DNA of 64,000 nucleotides from a virus. A model generated the notes under the pieces. That model was given only the letters and a program-made list of their open reading frames with translations. It searched no databases and had not been told where the DNA came from. The DNA lies in IMG/VR virus record IMGVR_UViG_3300035664_000006, positions 1-64,000 of that record, one strand, 5' to 3'. The translations under genes were made by a program, and so were the position numbers. The stretch's first letter is position 1; every line of letters begins with the position of its first letter. Of the stretch, positions 6,554 through 40,074 are shown in pieces.

Positions 6554-6582
6554 AAAAAAATAGGACCCGAAGGTCCTATTTT
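6554..6582. terminator. Intrinsic terminator, probably bidirectional
   Basis: taggacc-cgaa-ggtccta flanked by A and T runs. Confidence 0.75.
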
Positions 6583-15904: not shown

Positions 15905-17001
15905 TAGGCACCTCTTTTAATAAGAATGTTAATACGATTTTGATATTTACGTTTATCACGTGGTCTAACAGTTTTTTCAACTAGTTCTTGTAATTTAGCT
16001 AAACTAAAATTACCAATTCTAACTCTACCATTTTTAGTTTGATTAGGGTTAGCTTTTCTGTTTCCTTTACTAATAGTTGCCATTTGATGTCCTTATTATA
16101 CTATTATTTATTATTGTTGTCAATATCTTTTTTAAAGAAGATTTTATAATCCGAGTATCTTTCGTTTTTGTTCTGAAGCAATGAATAATGGAATACTATC
16201 AATAGTTTTAACATATTCTACATCATATAATGCATGTTTACAAACCTCTAGCAAGTCTTCCGGTTTACAGTAAAGTTGTACAGTATGATATCTATTATAA
16301 TCTTCTTCAAGAAGATCATCTGCCTTAGTTTGTTTCATATCAATAATACAATCAATGTCAGATAATCTGTCAATTGTGTCAGTATCTAAATTAGTATACA
16401 GAAAAGTAATTTCATCGTTTTTTTCAATTTGTTCATTGAATATATGTTCTAATTCCGTTATATGCATCTTACCCTCATTCTTTATTGTTGTCAAGTGTTT
16501 TTATATTTTCTTCGATAAATTTAATTGCTTCATCGACTGGTAATTCACCTACTTCCACATGAAATACATTTCTGTCTTGTGCATGAGCACCATGTGAATT
16601 AAATGCTACTGTTGGCAATTCTTTATCAAATTTAGATACCAATCTTTCATCATTATATGTATCTAACACTTCTTCAACAACTTCCTTTTTCTTACTGAAA
16701 ATTGCATCCCAATTATCACGATATGCATTGGATGTGCATTTAGTCTGGATTATATCACCAGTTACATCATTTCTTGTTGCCATTGTATATCCTTTACATT
16801 TTTGTTGCCAATATAGTTTTGGCTAATTCTTTTGTTGCGATTAAATCATTCTGACTAAATGAACTTTTAATCTTTTCTGAAAATTCAATTCTTTCTTCTA
16901 TTGTCATTAATCTATAAATTATTTTTATCAATTCATAATCAAATTCAGTTGGTTCTTCTAAATTTTCAAACATAATAATTATCTAGTCAGTGTGTTAAAA
17001 T

Positions 17002-17076: not shown

Positions 17077-17148
17077 AATTTAAATATTATATCAGTTATT
17101 CTACATTGTGTCAAGAAAACTGATAAAAATTGATTTAAAAAGTATCTG

Positions 17149-25773: not shown

Positions 25774-26304
25774 TTATTTGAACATTTGCAAGATATTTTT
25801 CATAGCATCTGTATTACTATCCCATGTTTGTCCGCCAAATCGTCCGTATTCTATACGGTTATCAGCAGACCATTTATTATAATAATCGGACAATTCACCA
25901 TTGCATTCCAATAGTTCATCACCGTAATTAATTATCATTACATTAGGATTCATGCAATCACGAATTGAATAAACCTTCTCAAACGCTTCTTTAATACCCA
26001 TGCCATGTTGTATTAGTACTAGAATAGCAATTGCTGTACTTCTACTAACACCAGCATGACAATGAATTAAAACTTTATCAGTATCAGTAAATGTTTTACT
26101 GAATTCTAAAATATTTTCAATATTTTGTAAAGTAGGATGTTGATATCCTTCTAATGGTACTTCAATATCATGAAATCTTTCTACATGATGTGGAACATCA
26201 CATTCAAATACTTTGGTAGTTGGATCAACAATGCTAATGACTTTAGTATGGGTTGGTGCCCATAAACTTGCTTCGTATAATCCTGATATTGTTATATCTA
26301 ACAT
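25774..26304 (-). CDS. Tyrosine/dual-specificity phosphatase
   Basis: HCHAGVSRS (CX5R). Confidence 0.9.
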   Translation of the reverse strand: MLDITISGLYEASLWAPTHTKVISIVDPTTKVFECDVPHHVERFHDIEVPLEGYQHPTLQNIENILEFSKTFTDTDKVLIHCHAGVSRSTAIAILVLIQHGMGIKEAFEKVYSIRDCMNPNVMIINYGDELLECNGELSDYYNKWSADNRIEYGRFGGQTWDSNTDAMKNILQMFK

Positions 26305-27090: not shown

Positions 27091-27654
27091 TTACACTGTT
27101 GTTTGCATTAGAACTTTTGCTTTTTCTACTGAAATTTTAAACCATTCACCTTTTCTTTCTTTAGAATGAATACTTAAAACATTTAGCAAATGATTCTCTG
27201 CATATTTTCTGTCAGATGTCCATTTTATGTCAACATAAGAATATGAGTTTGTTGGATCATAGATATTATATGTACTGATTCTTGATTCATAATCAGTAGT
27301 CATTCCAGCTTTAATCCATCCATTCCAAATCGGATTTGATATTAAATATATAAACCCTTCTTTAATTGAAGATTGTTCCCTTACAATAGTTTTCTCATCT
27401 TCTATTTGTTGTCTTATTCTACATAAATGTTCATATAACGTATTCTGTATTCCTTTATTATTGATAATATTCTGTTTTGTTTTATCATCTCTAATTAAAG
27501 GTTTTATAGAATTTAAAATCACCCGTTTCTTACCCAGTTTTTTTATCTTCTTGTTATAAATATTTTCACGAATACGTTGAAAATTGCTTTTATAATCTTT
27601 ATTTCTTATTAATTTAGCCATACTAATTATACGTTGTGTATCTCTGTGTGTCAA
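27091..27654 (-). mobile_element. T5orf172/GIY-YIG-like endonuclease
   Basis: GFIYLI..P...WIKAGMT...R...EWF. Confidence 0.8.
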
Positions 27655-27681
27655 CTACTTTTTTTTAAGGAGTCTAAAACT

Positions 27682-27762
27682 AAAAAACCCTGAGAGTTTT
27701 CACTTTCAGGGTTCTTTGAAAAATTAACTTATAATATTAAATTATGTCTTCAAAGAACCCTC
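27682..27762 (-). terminator. Terminator/antiterminator pair (attenuator)
   Basis: Terminator AACCCTGAAAG..CTCTCAGGGTT-TTTT (27682-27713) overlaps a 13-bp antiterminator AGGGTTCTTTGAA/TTCAAAGAACCCT. Confidence 0.8.
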
Positions 27763-27882
27763 ACGATACTCCGGTGTGCGATCATTATTAATTAAACTAA
27801 ATACACACCATACAGACGCAATCGAGCCGCCTTTTAAGGTTGATTGTAGTTTAAATTGTTGATGTAATGATTGCATTTCCAT
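27742..27882 (-). CDS. Putative attenuator leader peptide (46 aa)
   Basis: MEMQSLHQQFKLQSTLKGGSIASVWCVFSLINNDRTPEYREGSLKT; AAAGGA upstream; promoter TTGACA-17-TATAAT at 27934-27962. Confidence 0.7.
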   Translation of the reverse strand: MEMQSLHQQFKLQSTLKGGSIASVWCVFSLINNDRTPEYREGSLKT

Positions 27883-28081
27883 TTGTATCAATTTTCCTTT
27901 TATTCATTCAGCTGACCCCAACTGATATGATGTATTATACTATTATTTATCTTTCATGTCAAGAACTATTTTATTTCTTGTAATAGTATTTTTATTTAGC
28001 TACTTGTTATAAAAAGTATCTAATATGTGTATATTTTAGCACTTTTTTTAAAAATTGTCAATAATTATTTTTATTTATCTA

Positions 28082-28369
28082 TCATGTTCTAGCTGGTAGT
28101 GTTTTTTGTACTCTAAAATAGGGACTTAACACTTTCATAAATGTTTTAAAGCTATAGATACCATCACCTGGTCCATCACCTTGAAAAACATTAGCATACC
28201 ATGAATCTGGGTATTCAGCAATGAATAAATTTCCATTTTTCGATTTCTTAATATGTTTTTTAACGAACTGTTGTAATTCTTGTGGTATCTTAGTACCAGT
28301 AAATCCACCGAAATGTAGATTTACTGCAGTTGGTTTATAATTATTTTCTAAAATTTGATGTATTTTCAT
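28082..28369 (-). CDS. Hypothetical protein, possibly virion-internal
   Basis: N-terminus MKIHQILE. Confidence 0.55.
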   Translation of the reverse strand: MKIHQILENNYKPTAVNLHFGGFTGTKIPQELQQFVKKHIKKSKNGNLFIAEYPDSWYANVFQGDGPGDGIYSFKTFMKVLSPYFRVQKTLPART

Positions 28370-28971
28370 TAATCTACTACCGGGTCAATTAAAACTGGAA
28401 CATTTCCACGCATCATGATATTCCCACTGTGTATATCTGGTTGTGAATTCTGAAATATATCAGCATTCCACATAGCACTGATTATTTCATAGATTCCTGG
28501 AAACTGTTTTTTTAAAGCAATTTCTTCTGGAGTCCACTCCCCATCATATGATACTTTATATACCATTTCTTGAATATTATCCATGATTTCTTCAATTTTA
28601 ATCCATTCATCGCGAGTAACTTCTCGTAATTTCTCTAGTCTAACTGCATAAGCATCATTTCCTATACGGATATATGAACCTTTTATTTTAGGTAGATTAG
28701 GATTATTTTGATTACGTCTAGCATAATTGAAGAAAGTAAAGTATGATTTATCATTTTTGAATATCTTGAACACCCAAGGATATGAAGGATGTTCATATGC
28801 AGATCCATATGATCCAGATCCGAGATGTCTAAATCCATAATCCTGCATAATTAACTGCCATTCATCCAATGATGCATATAAAGGTTTATCCCTTATATCC
28901 CCACCCATAATTTCCTTTGCTTTTTTATAAAGCCCAATGTTTTTATAACCAGTCAATTCATTTATTCTCAT
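28369..28971 (-). CDS. Protein-kinase-like protein
   Basis: LGSGSYGSAY, VFK, DIHSGNIM, IDP; start MRINEL after TAAATA. Confidence 0.8.
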   Translation of the reverse strand: MRINELTGYKNIGLYKKAKEIMGGDIRDKPLYASLDEWQLIMQDYGFRHLGSGSYGSAYEHPSYPWVFKIFKNDKSYFTFFNYARRNQNNPNLPKIKGSYIRIGNDAYAVRLEKLREVTRDEWIKIEEIMDNIQEMVYKVSYDGEWTPEEIALKKQFPGIYEIISAMWNADIFQNSQPDIHSGNIMMRGNVPVLIDPVVD

Positions 28972-29074
28972 AATGTATTTATTCATAGGAGGGGAACATG
29001 TTCCCCTGTTCATCGCTATCGCTCTTCACTATTCTCTTATTATCAATAGTAATAATTGTTTTTAAATACTATTC

Positions 29075-29500
29075 AACTAGATTACGAGCATACTTTGCCC
29101 CACAAAGGGGGCAAAAAATAAAAATTTCAACTGAGTTGACTTCACACTGATATTACACTATTACAGAGGCGGTCAGCCGGTACCTCGAAGTGCTGTCTTT
29201 ATCTGACGGCGGGTTCATTCATACATATCAGCGCACAAATGTCCGTAGGGTTCTTATCCCTTCTTTAGCCTATTTTTCCATTGCTCAAACATTCGAAATC
29301 GGTTTTACAAAGGCGTATCCGATCATCATCTACAACACGAGGTGTAGGTAGTCAAATGAGTCATTGCTTCAGCACAATTGTTTCCATCTACGCGAAGGAC
29401 ATTCCGTATCTCTGGGCACTATTTTTCCTTACCAGTGCAGGTTTTATCTGAAGTGTATTGCCTAAGTTGTGCCTGAGTTTGAGCCTTAATATTTGACTAT
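29075..29500 (-). ncRNA. Large structured non-coding region
   Basis: No ORF >=60 aa, GC-elevated, many hairpins (e.g. GAGGTACCGGCTGACCGCCTC; CTACACCTCGTGTTGTAG). Confidence 0.45.
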
Positions 29501-32594: not shown

Positions 32595-32669
32595 TGGTGC
32601 GCTTGATGGGATTCGAACCCATTATCGTAAGTTTTAGAGGCTTTTGCTATACCGAGCAGCTTCAAGCGC
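32595..32669 (-). tRNA. tRNA with CTA anticodon (amber suppressor-like)
   Basis: GCGCTTG/CAAGCGC-ACCA, T arm ATGGG-TTCGAAT-CCCAT, AAGC-CTCTAAA-ACTT. Confidence 0.75.
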
Positions 32670-33526: not shown

Positions 33527-33880
33527 CCCCCTTGGTAGGCGATTTTGTAACAAGGAGCCACCCCCGGAACTCGCTGGATATTAAGCAGCGATAGCATCAA
33601 AGATGCCATCTACAGTGTAGAATTCAAATTTTGTATTTGCTTTTGCATTTACTTTAAATGCTTGATTTACGGTCATCGCCTACCGATTCTCCAATGTTCT
33701 TTTATCCAGCAATCGAATCTAAGTCAGGCCCATTATAAAACATATTAGCACTTCCCTTTTAAGGGGCAGGAAGTTTATGGCTATGGCCCCACTCTGATAC
33801 CTCTAATATGTTTTATGGTGGACCTGGCGATGTTCTGCCCATCGCGTCTTACCAAACTATTACAACATCTTCAACGAATT
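33515..33880 (-). ncRNA. ssrA: Two-piece (circularly permuted) tmRNA
   Basis: 3' acceptor part ends CAGGTCCACCA (33816) upstream of 5' GGGCCTGAC..TTCGA (33731); G3-U70; tag ORF AKANTKFEFYTVDGIFDAIAA* (33581-33646). Confidence 0.88.
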
Positions 33881-33932
33881 CTTTAATTAATGTGTATTAT
33901 AGCACATAAAAACTGTTTGTCAATAATAAAAG

Positions 33933-34674: not shown

Positions 34675-35065
34675 TTATCATATGTGACCTGTATTTAATT
34701 TTGTCTATACCGCACACCCTTGCGACTTCAGCCTGTTAAGGTAGAGCTACTAAATAGAACTCTATGACTTCTATACTTTCACATAGATAAATTAAATATC
34801 TAACTATGGTTCAATAATGGCGTACCACTCCTAATCGTTTGTACTATGTACCGGATTTAAGTTAGAATATTTACTTATTATAGCATATTTATATGAGATG
34901 TCAAGAACTATTTTCTTTTTACACGTGGTTTAATTCTTGGTTTACCGGTTAATGAGTTGTTTCTGCTTCTAGCCATTGTAAATACCTCGTTTGTTAGTGA
35001 TGGGGCTATTATACCTCAATTTCAGATGTTGTCAAGAACTTCTAAAAGAATAAATACTACTATTA

Positions 35066-38016: not shown

Positions 38017-40074
38017 CTACTTGGTTGTAGCTCTGTAAATTCCATCCCATGAAAGTGGTAATTTAGTTTTTTTCATTTGTTCACATCTTTCAATCCATAA
38101 CTCGTAGCTATGTTCCATTTGGCCATCAAATTCACTCATTAATTCTTTAGACATTTTAATAGCTTGGTCAAACTGTTGAGAACGATATGCTAATAACATG
38201 AAGTTATGTTTTGTTCTTGCTTCTTCGTATGAATCCAAATTTACATTATCGGTTAACAGTGGTGTATAAATTTGTAATCCAACTGTTTTACCTTTCACTG
38301 CAATATTATCAAGTTCTAATGTAAAAATTTCATCTTTAACTAACGCATTTGTATTAGGTCCAATAATAAGTAATACACCATAAGATTTAGTTTGACCTTC
38401 TAATCTAGCAGCAGTGCTAACTGAATCACCTAACACATCGTATCCAAATTTATCTTTAGAACCAATATTACCAATTAGTGTTTCACCGGTATTAACCCCA
38501 GCCCCCATACCAACTGGTGGACGGCCACTAGCAGTAAGTTCAATATTGAAATCTTCGATTGCTTTAATCATTTGTTGAGCAGTTTTAACTGCAGTTACGG
38601 CATGATTAGGATCATCTAATGGCGCACCGTGAACATGTAAACTTGCATCGCCGATGAATTTAATCAATGTACCGTCATTCTTTAATACTGGTACACTCAA
38701 CGCAGTCATATAATCATTCATGATTTGTGTAAGACCTTCTACATCATCACCGAACGATTCTCCTAGGGTTGTAAATCCACGTAAATCTGTCATGACAATT
38801 GAAAGTTCTTTACGTTCTCCACCTAGTTTAATAAGTTCTGGGTTCTTTTGTAATTTTTCTACGATAGTAGGGTTAACATATGAGCCAAATTGTTTTTTAA
38901 TCTGCATTTTTTGTAAGAACTCACTTACAAATTTCACACCATATGCATGTAATGCAACTAGTATAATACCACTTACAAATGCAGTAATATCAAACAAGTA
39001 CAAGTATTCGCTAAACACATATTGGCTACCAAACACTGATCCAACGGTTAATACAACAACGGCACCTAACCCAACATAAATCCATCTAGTTAAGAATAAT
39101 AGCAGAATGCCGATGACTAGTAAAGATAAGATTTCAACGCCATCTGCATAATCTGGACGTTGTATTACTACGTTATTCATTATAGTACCAATAACTGCTG
39201 CTTGTGCTTCATGTGGGAATACCGAACCTTTTGCAGTTGGAATAGGATTACCGATACCTGCAGCAGTCGGGCCAACGATAACTATTGAACCGTTGAGATC
39301 ATCAGGTATATTAGATAAACTTATACTGGTTGACGATTGGCTCCAATCTATCCAAACACGACCTAGTGGATCAGTCGTAATTGGACCGAACTTTGGAATT
39401 CTCATTTTCTCAACACCAAATTCATTTAGTTTTACTTGAAAAGTTGAATCACCACTCGATGCTAACGCAACTGTTTCTAAACTTAATGATGGATATAGTT
39501 TATCACCAACTGAAACTACTAATGGCATCCTGCGATTAACACCATCAATTTCGGGTAGTGTATTAACTGTACCAACCCCGGCTACAGATTCTTCTATGAC
39601 TGGAATATTAGCAATAATACCTGGATATTGAATGACACGATCAATAAATTCTGGTCCTAATACTACTGACCCTGTGATTTTAGGTGTATTTTTAGAAAGA
39701 TCAGCCGGGATATTAGGGAGAATAACAGGATAACTTGATAAGGCATTCGCGAATGCCTTATCACCACCTTGGCGATCAGTTTCTGGCATTAGGACATTGA
39801 ATACCACTAATCCGGCATTATGCTCATACAGGTTTTGGATTATATCTGCATAGATGGTTCTCTTGAATGGCCATTGACCATACTTGTCTAACGATGACTC
39901 GTCTATATTAATTGTATAGATTGAATTTTCAGTGGTTGGCTTTGATGTAATTAACGTATCAAAATATCGTAATCTTATACTTTCTATAAATGATGGATCG
40001 GATACCCGTACACCAACAATTAAAAATAACGTTAATAATGCAGTCCATGGACTTAAAAGAATTTTTTTAATCAT
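38017..40074 (-). CDS. CHASE2-domain class III adenylate/guanylate cyclase
   Basis: IDESSL..GQWP (CHASE2), TM helices, DLRGFT, KFIGDA, GDSVSTAARLE. Confidence 0.92.
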   Translation of the reverse strand: MIKKILLSPWTALLTLFLIVGVRVSDPSFIESIRLRYFDTLITSKPTTENSIYTINIDESSLDKYGQWPFKRTIYADIIQNLYEHNAGLVVFNVLMPETDRQGGDKAFANALSSYPVILPNIPADLSKNTPKITGSVVLGPEFIDRVIQYPGIIANIPVIEESVAGVGTVNTLPEIDGVNRRMPLVVSVGDKLYPSLSLETVALASSGDSTFQVKLNEFGVEKMRIPKFGPITTDPLGRVWIDWSQSSTSISLSNIPDDLNGSIVIVGPTAAGIGNPIPTAKGSVFPHEAQAAVIGTIMNNVVIQRPDYADGVEILSLLVIGILLLFLTRWIYVGLGAVVVLTVGSVFGSQYVFSEYLYLFDITAFVSGIILVALHAYGVKFVSEFLQKMQIKKQFGSYVNPTIVEKLQKNPELIKLGGERKELSIVMTDLRGFTTLGESFGDDVEGLTQIMNDYMTALSVPVLKNDGTLIKFIGDASLHVHGAPLDDPNHAVTAVKTAQQMIKAIEDFNIELTASGRPPVGMGAGVNTGETLIGNIGSKDKFGYDVLGDSVSTAARLEGQTKSYGVLLIIGPNTNALVKDEIFTLELDNIAVKGKTVGLQIYTPLLTDNVNLDSYEEARTKHNFMLLAYRSQQFDQAIKMSKELMSEFDGQMEHSYELWIERCEQMKKTKLPLSWDGIYRATTK

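What the first reader, a model, noticed from the sequence alone, without database searches (positions are those of the whole stretch)
27682..27962. Leader-peptide attenuator with all 20 amino acids at the head of the tRNA/Y-like RNA array
Seen, in order: perfect sigma70 promoter, RBS, a 46-codon ORF containing every amino acid (single W, C, H, Y, P, D, A), a 13-bp antiterminator whose 5' strand is the last leader codons (EGSLK), and a mutually exclusive intrinsic terminator. Known: in trp/his-type attenuation a stalled ribosome permits antitermination and a completing ribosome causes termination. Inference: a general sensor in which loss or cleavage of almost any host tRNA turns on read-through into the phage tRNA, decoy and repair region. 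Caveat: further sigma70-like promoters lie downstream (e.g. 27627-27654), so control may be partial.
Basis: partly seen in the sequence, partly recalled or inferred. Interest (0 to 1): 0.88.

Follow-up and report, generated by a model that had tools for sequence, protein, structure and literature searches.

The report
Translated structured leader before phage tRNAs
A large freshwater phage keeps a short, translated, tightly folded leader with a hairpin-plus-terminator switch just ahead of its tRNA gene array; it probably links transcription stopping to how well ribosomes translate, but it does not look like a sensor for all 20 amino acids.

Summary
All the described parts exist on the minus strand: a perfect sigma-70 promoter, a 5' hairpin, AAGGA, a 46-codon ORF with all 20 amino acids, a 15+7 bp hairpin holding the stop codon, and an overlapping intrinsic terminator. 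The unit is conserved at the head of the tRNA array in every related contig found.

The ORF behaves like a regulatory uORF. Every indel is in frame, and dN/dS is about 0.85 against 0.10-0.41 for neighbouring genes. The RNA is under nucleotide-level constraint. Folding with a ribosome footprint predicts that a ribosome in the last 9 codons or at the stop forces the terminator. Otherwise the hairpin competes for the terminator's G+C core.

- Hairpin and terminator overlap by only 6-10 nt. A shortened hairpin plus the full terminator is within about 1 kcal/mol.
- A conserved perfect promoter lies 27 nt after the terminator, so the array does not depend on read-through.
- One such ORF per window is expected by chance. 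One lineage lacks three amino acids. Tyr sits where stalling favours termination.

Verdict: a plausible translation-coupled attenuator or insulator, and a new variant of a known kind. It is unproven, and the 20-amino-acid sensor is unlikely.

The parts
27934..27962 (-). Promoter P1: TTGACA, 17-nt spacer, TATAAT
   Evidence: Both hexamers are invariant in all related loci.
27907..27926 (-). 5'-terminal stem-loop of the P1 transcript: 7-8 bp stem with a GGGU loop. Probably an mRNA 5' stabiliser.
   Evidence: Fold at -10.7 kcal/mol. One compensatory U-A to A-U change and G-U variants among lineages. The stabiliser role is inferred from established knowledge of 5' hairpins.
27895..27899 (-). Shine-Dalgarno-like AAGGA, 12 nt before the ATG
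   Evidence: Invariant in the alignment.
27742..27882 (-). Leader ORF of 46 codons plus TAA (42-46 codons in relatives)
   Evidence: All four indels against the 74%-identity group are multiples of 3. dN/dS is 0.85 over 32 codons.
27873..27890 (-). S1: translation-initiation region (-8 to +10 around the ATG), predicted to pair with S2
   Evidence: RNAalifold consensus. Pair counts show 6+3+3 pairs, two of them compensatory.
27764..27779 (-). S2: codons 35-40 (the ..PEYR region). Partner of S1. In the window sequence it can pair instead with the 3' arm of the terminator.
   Evidence: Nucleotides are invariant apart from one synonymous CGT/CGA change. The alternative pairing had no effect in the second lineage.
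27708..27761 (-). Hairpin A (candidate antiterminator): 15-bp lower stem, 2x2 internal loop, 7-bp upper stem. The 5' arm is codons 41-45. The stop codon 27744-27742 lies in the upper stem.
   Evidence: All differences between lineages fall in the apical loop, the internal loop or the top wobble pair.
27682..27717 (-). Intrinsic terminator T. Core stem is 27713-27706 with 27693-27686, the inner stem is 3 bp, and the U-tract is 27687-27682. It shares 27713-27708 (27717-27708 with the A:U extension) with the 3' arm of hairpin A.
   Evidence: It is one of only four strong minus-strand terminators in the window.
27626..27654 (-). Promoter P2: perfect consensus, preceded by an A-tract at 27666-27659 that resembles an UP element. 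It lies 27 nt after the terminator U-tract and drives the T5orf172 gene and the tRNA array.
   Evidence: Conserved in all lineages (TATAAA -10 in the second group). The UP-element reading rests on established knowledge.

Best explanation
This is a translation-coupled terminator, that is, a ribosome-dependent attenuator or insulator. It marks the boundary between an upstream early operon and the phage's tRNA array.

Proposed mechanism:
1. P1, a promoter at 28061 and the upstream operon transcribe a highly structured leader of about 245 nt.
2. The leader's ORF is translated for the act of translation, not for its product.
3. If the first ribosome keeps pace and occupies the last ~9 codons or the stop codon when RNA polymerase reaches the U-tract, it holds the 5' arm of hairpin A open. 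The terminator then forms and transcription stops before P2.
4. If the ribosome is absent, late or stalled within codons 1-37, hairpin A forms first and competes for the terminator's G+C core. More polymerases then read through into the array.

Shown: the parts, their conservation, their position and the coding behaviour of the ORF. Inferred: the coupling itself, and that read-through matters although the array has its own promoter P2. The switch would respond to overall translation speed. It is not a purpose-built 20-amino-acid sensor.
For: Anatomy:
- Promoter, 5' hairpin, SD, ORF, hairpin A containing the stop codon, and terminator.

Conservation:
- In three DNA lineages at 74-88% identity, the segment from codon 36 to P2 is almost invariant, while the body of the ORF diverges.
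- Differences inside hairpin A fall only in loops.
- The unit lies at the head of the tRNA array in all loci: 270, 440 and 600 nt before the first tRNA.

The ORF behaves like a regulatory uORF:
- The frame is kept in five peptide lineages of 42-46 aa, and all indels are multiples of 3.
- Differences at codon positions 1, 2 and 3 are 16, 8 and 11.
- dN/dS is 0.85, against 0.10-0.41 (0.52 for one nearly identical pair) for neighbouring genes.

Footprint-constrained folding:
- The terminator core is paired at 0.96-1.0 with the A site at codons 39 to stop.
- It is paired at 0.27-0.38 with no ribosome.
- The second lineage behaves the same way, 1.0 against 0.4-0.5.

Other points:
- The translation-initiation region pairs with the segment just before hairpin A. 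Five compensatory pairs are seen against 1.0 in shuffles. This would limit initiation to nascent transcripts.
- Of the four strong minus-strand terminators in the window, only this one was seen to have an overlapping upstream hairpin.
Against: - P2 is a conserved consensus promoter only 27 nt after the terminator, and more perfect promoters lie inside the array. Read-through can only add to array transcription.
- At equilibrium the switch is leaky. The full hairpin (-63.9) and the shortened hairpin plus full terminator (-62.8 kcal/mol) nearly tie, so the predicted range is only about 2-3 fold.
- There are no repeated regulatory codons.
- No pause site was identified.
- The extra anti-termination from an early-stalled ribosome appears in the window sequence but not in the second lineage.
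- The key stems show no covariation because they are invariant.
- All compensatory changes come from one divergent lineage.
- There is no direct evidence that the ORF is translated or that the terminator works.
Confidence: 0.4

Rival explanations
1. An ordinary stand-alone early transcription unit: promoter, small gene, terminator. The terminator only insulates P2 from upstream transcription. Hairpin A is a 3' stabiliser or an RNase III-type processing site. Nothing is sensed.
For: - The phage has many consensus promoters, and P2 follows at once.
- Hairpin A has a long stem, an internal loop and an upper stem, like phage RNase III sites (established knowledge of T7 R1.1-type sites). A T7 gp0.7-like kinase gene lies next door.
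- A shortened hairpin A and the terminator can coexist.
- Some peptide positions (LH, VW, PEYR..GSLKT) are conserved in all or most lineages.
Against: - dN/dS of 0.85 and codon-position differences of 16/8/11 are not what a functional protein shows.
- The conserved residues coincide with conserved nucleotides that lie in predicted helices.
- The near-invariance of about 130 nt, including the terminator loop, goes beyond what a plain terminator needs.
- Of the four strong terminators, only this one was seen to have the overlap.
Confidence: 0.3
2. The terminated leader is itself the product. It would be a stable, structured small RNA, possibly with dual function alongside its peptide. It would act in trans on host or phage targets, as the Sinorhizobium trp attenuator RNA rnTrpL does.
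For: - Strong promoter, a 5'-terminal hairpin and a structured 3' end.
- The whole-transcript fold has z = -5.5.
- Nucleotide-level conservation with compensatory pairs across the ORF.
- A 184-nt contig covering 27926-27748 is present in a freshwater metatranscriptome library, at a depth similar to the tRNA-flanking contigs.
- Precedent: PMC7298713 and PMC7968998, from their abstracts as listed.
Against: - No target or seed region was identified.
- The ORF frame is maintained, which a pure non-coding RNA does not need.
- The RNA library may contain DNA. The contig ends are explained by assembly-graph branching (last variable site 27777 minus 30 nt), not by RNA ends.
Confidence: 0.13
3. One reading: a general sensor in which shortage or cleavage of almost any tRNA stalls the ribosome on a leader that was selected to contain all 20 amino acids. 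This would turn on the tRNA, decoy and repair region.
For: - 14 of 15 distinct peptide variants contain all 20 amino acids, falling in 4 of 5 lineages. These include a 42-aa form at 48% identity in which Cys and Ala sit at different positions.
- Holding positions identical to the window fixed, the chance that at least 3 of 4 other lineages keep all 20 is about 0.002 under a star tree.
- The downstream genes are tRNAs.
Against: - One all-20 ORF per window is the chance expectation.
- P0006 lacks Ala, Asp and Trp.
- The lineages are not independent, so 0.002 is too small.
- In no lineage does the part of the ORF where stalling could favour read-through hold all 20. Tyr is missing in the window type. 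Glu+Tyr, Glu+Arg and Asp+Arg+Tyr are missing in others.
- A stall at Tyr39 is predicted to give termination.
- Codons are single and P2 lies downstream.
Confidence: 0.1
4. A type I toxin-like small peptide gene. Its mRNA would be kept untranslatable by long-range pairing of its initiation region.
For: The initiation region pairs with a distal segment. The middle of the peptide is moderately hydrophobic.
Against: - The hydrophobic stretch is only about 14 residues and contains Pro or Gly in some lineages.
- dN/dS is near 1.
- No antisense promoter better than 9 of 12 matches was found.
- No family match in Pfam-independent searches.
Confidence: 0.03

Closest known systems
Ribosome-mediated transcription attenuators of amino-acid operons (trp, his, leu, thr, pheA leaders)
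   Same: A promoter-proximal translated leader ORF and an intrinsic terminator. An alternative upstream hairpin competes for the terminator's 5' half. A ribosome reaching the end of the leader favours termination. The leader's initiation region is sequestered in the completed transcript.
   Different: There are no runs of regulatory codons. The downstream genes are tRNAs, not a biosynthetic operon. The stop codon lies inside the competing hairpin, and the overlap is only 6-10 nt. A strong promoter sits between the terminator and the 'regulated' genes. The Rfam His_leader model scores 23.8 bits against a threshold of 49, driven by the terminator.
Stall-sensing attenuators of antibiotic-resistance genes (e.g. 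Bacillus bmrCD, PMC4191407; mef/mel, PMC4335068; titles and abstracts seen)
   Same: They sense ribosome slowing in general, not one amino acid, through a short leader ORF with terminator and antiterminator alternatives.
   Different: Those respond to drug-stalled ribosomes and control a directly adjacent resistance gene with no intervening promoter. Here no inducer is known, and the host is an uncultured freshwater bacterium.
rnTrpL/peTrpL of Sinorhizobium meliloti (PMC7298713, PMC7968998; abstracts seen)
   Same: An attenuator whose terminated RNA and leader peptide could have roles of their own.
   Different: There is no evidence here for any trans target, and no sequence similarity.
T-box leaders
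   Same: Functionally, this is the known way for bacteria to couple tRNA status to read-through of a terminator (established knowledge).
   Different: T-boxes bind uncharged tRNA directly and have no leader ORF. No T-box match was found in the Rfam scans.

Membership tests
Ribosome-mediated transcription attenuator (trp/his class) | Short leader ORF with a ribosome-binding site, translated | tested here: inconclusive
   AAGGA lies 12 nt before a conserved ATG. The frame is kept through all indels in 5 lineages. No ribosome data are available.
Ribosome-mediated transcription attenuator (trp/his class) | Intrinsic terminator after the leader | tested here: met
   An 8-bp core stem plus a 3-bp inner stem and 6 U, at -18.6 kcal/mol with the A:U extension. 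Function was not tested.
Ribosome-mediated transcription attenuator (trp/his class) | Antiterminator that excludes the terminator and is disrupted by a ribosome completing the leader | tested here: inconclusive
   Hairpin A shares 6-10 nt with the terminator. Its 5' arm is codons 41-45. The footprint model gives terminator pairing of 0.96-1.0 with a ribosome at codons 39 to stop. However, the shortened hairpin plus terminator is within 1.1 kcal/mol of the full hairpin.
Ribosome-mediated transcription attenuator (trp/his class) | Anti-antiterminator (a 1:2-type pairing) that gives termination when the leader is not translated | tested here: not met
   No upstream partner for the 5' arm of hairpin A appears in the single or consensus folds. 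The S1:S2 helix sequesters the start region instead.
Ribosome-mediated transcription attenuator (trp/his class) | Clustered regulatory codons for the sensed amino acid | tested here: not met
   Seven amino acids occur once. The only repeated-codon runs are QQ, GG and NN, and these are not conserved across lineages.
Ribosome-mediated transcription attenuator (trp/his class) | Regulated genes depend on read-through, with no promoter in between | tested here: not met
   The perfect promoter P2 at 27654-27626 is conserved in all lineages.
Rfam His_leader (RF00514) | Score at or above the gathering threshold | tested here: not met
   23.8 bits against 49, with E of 0.06-0.12. The alignment rests on the terminator.
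Type I toxin | Peptide with a transmembrane-length hydrophobic helix and a cis antisense RNA | tested here: not met
   The hydrophobic core is about 14 residues. There is no good plus-strand promoter.

The most novel reading that the evidence does not exclude
The leader is a race-type sensor of the cell's overall decoding capacity. A compositionally near-complete ORF is translated once, co-transcriptionally. Any slowing of initiation or elongation lets the hairpin win and sends extra transcription into the phage's tRNA, tmRNA-associated and small-RNA region. Slowing could come from tRNA depletion or cleavage by host anticodon nucleases, or from starvation. The array would then feed back by restoring decoding.
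Probability: 0.12. Interest if true: 0.85.

Novelty: new variant of a known kind. Interest (0 to 1): 0.5.

Why it matters
Large phages carry tRNA arrays, but how those arrays are regulated is essentially unknown. A conserved translated leader with a terminator switch at the head of an array would be the first candidate for demand-controlled expression of phage tRNAs. It could be tested directly with reporter fusions. Even on the ordinary reading it is useful. It documents a conserved, unannotated uORF-like gene and RNA structure in an abundant group of about 300-kb freshwater phages. It also shows where the array's own promoter lies.

Tried and rejected
- **Phage database:** DNA searches of the annotated collection, in near and distant modes, found no relative of the 2-kb region.
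- **IMG/VR scans:** four pattern scans all returned the same six loci.
- **Metagenome scan:** it gave only the same two sequence types, so no covariation in the key stems could be obtained.
- **Bacterial genomes:** a scan with 20 nt of the terminator gave one chance hit inside a Ferruginibacter MAG gene, so no host counterpart was found.
- **RNA-type runs:** contigs from four runs were laid on the region.
  - Two contigs from different studies end at 27747/27748. I first considered an RNA 3' end or RNase III cut there. I rejected this because the position equals the last strain-variable site (27777) minus 30 nt, which is where 31-mer assembly graphs branch when strains share the invariant segment.
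  - Parts without cover are not evidence.
  - A 188-nt contig crossing the terminator (27831-27645) comes from a run that is probably DNA.
- **Other family searches:** the sub-threshold Rfam His_leader hit is terminator-driven. PHROGs and the ESM Atlas gave nothing for the peptide; Pfam was not run on it.
- **Early-stall effect:** the extra anti-termination by an early-stalled ribosome (S2 pairing with the terminator's 3' arm) appears in the window sequence but not in the second lineage. I do not rely on it.
- **TAG recoding:** this was checked because of the CUA-anticodon tRNA and rejected for this window.
- **Literature:** two searches found no report of a leader-peptide attenuator before phage tRNA genes.

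Full report
**Where and what.** The window is the first 64 kb of a 95.9-kb IMG/VR viral contig. CheckV rates the contig about 26% complete. Related contigs reach 292-306 kb. A CHASE2-cyclase gene links it distantly to Pelagibacter phage HTVC008M and the Methylophilales phage Melnitz. DNA runs that hold the region are lake-water metagenomes. The feature is on the minus strand.

**Order of parts, 5' to 3'.**
- Promoter P1 at 27962-27934, TTGACA-17-TATAAT.
- A stem-loop at 27926-27907, starting where the transcript should start.
- AAGGA at 27899-27895.
- ATG at 27882, then 46 codons, then TAA at 27744-27742.
- Hairpin A at 27761-27708: a 15-bp lower stem, a 2x2 internal loop and a 7-bp upper stem. 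Its 5' arm is codons 41-45. Its upper stem contains the stop codon.
- An intrinsic terminator at 27717-27682.
- A second perfect promoter, P2, at 27654-27626, 27 nt further on.
- A T5orf172-domain gene at 27621-27091.
- 25 tRNA genes from 26751 to 14271.

**Is it more than chance?**
- The window holds 16 perfect sigma-70 promoters, all on the minus strand, against 0.06 expected. The phage clearly uses such promoters, and P1 is one of them.
- Hairpin A folds at -24.8 kcal/mol with z = -7.1.
- My own scan found only four strong minus-strand terminators in 64 kb, at 6560, 9821, 27687 and 32102. Only this one was seen to have an overlapping upstream hairpin.
- The amino-acid completeness of the single ORF is not beyond chance. 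Random 46-mers with this phage's composition reach 20 of 20 at 1.9%. Sliding windows of its real proteins reach it at 0.87%. The window has 123 ATG-started ORFs of 38-50 aa, and this one (with a nested start) is the only complete one.

**Relatives.**
- An exact-arm pattern found six IMG/VR loci. A peptide-profile scan added three metagenome loci.
- They form three DNA types, at 88%, 85% and 74% identity to the window.
- In all of them the unit lies directly upstream of the tRNA array. In L006/L007 tRNA-Tyr starts about 270 nt after the terminator with no T5orf172 gene. In L010 the gap is about 440 nt. In L005/L008/L009 it is about 600 nt to tRNA-Asp.
- P1, the 5' hairpin, AAGGA, the ATG, the stop, hairpin A, the terminator and P2 are all kept.
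- From codon 36 to the -35 of P2 the sequence is almost invariant even at 74% overall identity. The body of the ORF and the region upstream of P1 diverge freely.
- Within hairpin A the differences fall in the apical loop, the internal loop and the top G-U pair. The stems are untouched.

**Is the ORF translated, and does the peptide matter?**
- All four indels between the window and the 74% group inside the ORF are multiples of three. The two in the 5' UTR are not. L010 has a further 3-nt deletion.
- Protein searches found five lineages of 42-46 residues with the same start and end.
- The amino-acid sequence nevertheless drifts. Differences at codon positions 1, 2 and 3 are 16, 8 and 11. There are 18 non-synonymous against 3 synonymous codon changes in the variable part.
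- dN/dS is 0.85 over 32 codons. Neighbouring genes between the same phages give 0.10-0.41, and 0.52 for one nearly identical pair.
- Where the residue is conserved the codon is usually identical too. Those nucleotides lie in predicted helices.
- This pattern fits an ORF kept for the act of translation on top of a constrained RNA. It does not fit a protein under purifying selection. The sample is small.

**RNA structure.**
- The whole transcript folds with z = -5.5.
- The consensus fold of five sequences pairs the initiation region (27890-27873, including the U and G of the ATG) with 27779-27764, just before hairpin A.
- Over the whole structure, five pairs change on both sides, against 1.0 +/- 0.9 in shuffles. 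Only 1 of 500 shuffles reaches that number. Slid controls give 0-1.
- All five compensatory changes come from the one divergent lineage, so this is modest support.
- Such sequestration would restrict initiation to nascent transcripts. I recall this being proposed for the trp leader, but I did not check it in a paper.

**Does the switch work on paper?** I folded the RNA up to the terminator's 3' arm while masking a ribosome footprint, from 15 nt before to 12 nt after the first base of the A-site codon.
- With the A site at codon 37 or earlier, hairpin A is intact.
- From codon 39 to the stop, the terminator core pairs are at 0.96-1.0 (about 0.8-1.0 at codon 38).
- With no ribosome the core pairs are at 0.27-0.38.
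- The second lineage behaves alike, at 1.0 against 0.4-0.5.
- The two structures are not strictly exclusive. The full hairpin state (-63.9 kcal/mol) and the shortened hairpin plus full terminator state (-62.8) nearly tie.
- At equilibrium the predicted range is therefore only 2-3 fold. A larger effect would have to be kinetic: the hairpin forms first, and the terminator must displace 6-8 bp while polymerase sits on the U-tract.

**The 20-amino-acid idea.**
- Fourteen of fifteen distinct peptide variants contain all 20 amino acids. These represent 4 of 5 lineages.
- P0006 is known from one contig. It lacks Ala, Asp and Trp.
- I held fixed the positions identical to the window and redrew the rest. 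The chances of completeness are 0.22, 0.048, 0.089 and 0.033 for the four other lineages. The chance that at least three succeed is 0.002 under a star tree.
- That is suggestive but overstated, because the lineages share ancestry. For example, two share the Ala before PEYR.
- More important, the invariant C-terminal PEYR..GSLKT supplies part of the set, and it lies where a stalled ribosome is predicted to favour termination. Up to the Pro of PEYR the peptides lack Tyr (window type), Glu+Tyr, Glu+Arg, Asp+Arg+Tyr, and five residues in P0006.
- So completeness is not a property of the part that could signal.

**The promoter problem.** P2 is a perfect, conserved promoter between the terminator and the array. 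Further perfect promoters lie inside the array at 17114, 16123 and 13359. Read-through can only add to array transcription. An equally simple role for the terminator is to shield P2 from the strong upstream promoters. This is the main reason my confidence in a regulatory role stays near 0.4.

**Expression data.**
- A freshwater metatranscriptome library holds a 184-nt contig of an L010-like strain. It spans from the last base of the -10 hexamer to 27748.
- A second run's contig ends at 27747.
- These ends match the place where a 31-mer assembly graph branches when co-occurring strains share the invariant segment: the last variable site, 27777, minus 30 (inference).
- They therefore say nothing about RNA ends. 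The library may also contain DNA.

**Comparison with known systems.**
- In its logic the unit works like a ribosome-mediated transcription attenuator. It is closer to the stall-sensing kind (bmrCD, mef/mel) than to trp or his.
- It fails three defining features of the classical family. It has no anti-antiterminator for the hairpin, no clustered regulatory codons, and a promoter between the attenuator and its target genes.
- The Rfam His_leader model scores 23.8 bits against a threshold of 49, because of the terminator alone.
- No report of such a leader before phage tRNA genes turned up in two full-text searches.

**Verdict.** The element is best read as a translation-coupled terminator at the array boundary, with confidence 0.4. 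The main rivals are a plain insulated small transcription unit (0.3) and a trans-acting structured RNA (0.13). The specific 20-amino-acid sensor is unlikely (0.1).

Noticed in passing
window 27091-27654 (-): The ATG of the T5orf172-domain gene (27621) lies only 4 nt after the -10 hexamer of P2. From P2 the gene would be a leaderless mRNA. Otherwise it would be translated only from transcripts that read through the terminator. The gene is present in the window and L011 but absent from L006, L007 and L010 at the same place, as expected for a mobile homing-type insertion.
   Followed up: partly
window 32595-32669 (-): A tRNA with a CUA anticodon (amber-suppressor type, labelled Pyl by ARAGORN). 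It is conserved in L006, L007 and L010. Reading TAG as sense lengthens ORFs less than reading TGA or TAA as sense, and TAG ends 8 of 66 long ORFs. So there is no sign of TAG recoding in this window.
   Followed up: partly
window 33534-33927 (-): A permuted, alphaproteobacterial-type tmRNA gene (Rfam scores of 92.5 and 65.1 bits) lies just upstream of the operon that ends at this terminator.
   Followed up: no
window 29287-29443 (-): A full-length match to the Rfam Polynucleobacter-1 RNA motif (64.2 bits, threshold 37) lies inside the phage, between the amidoligase-like gene and the kinase gene.
   Followed up: no
window 598-56048 (-): There are sixteen perfect TTGACA-17-TATAAT promoters, all on the minus strand, against 0.06 expected. 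Several share extended similarity around the hexamers, for example 16094-16134 and 34876-34918 with P1.
   Followed up: partly
window 28369-29013 (-) and 25774-26304 (-): A T7 gp0.7-like protein kinase (PHROG 15752, E = 3.7e-13) lies upstream of the leader. A dual-specificity phosphatase (Pfam DSPc, E = 1.6e-12) lies inside the tRNA array.
   Followed up: no
window 38017-40074 (-): A CHASE2-adenylate/guanylate cyclase gene of 685 aa. It has 44% identity to Melnitz phages and 36% to Pelagibacter phage HTVC008M.
   Followed up: no
window 27655-27681 (-): The spacer between the terminator U-tract and the -35 of P2 is invariant across lineages apart from the A-run length. It contains ACUCCUUA, which resembles the 3' end of 16S rRNA, followed by an A-tract placed like a proximal UP-element subsite (the interpretation rests on established knowledge).
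   Followed up: no
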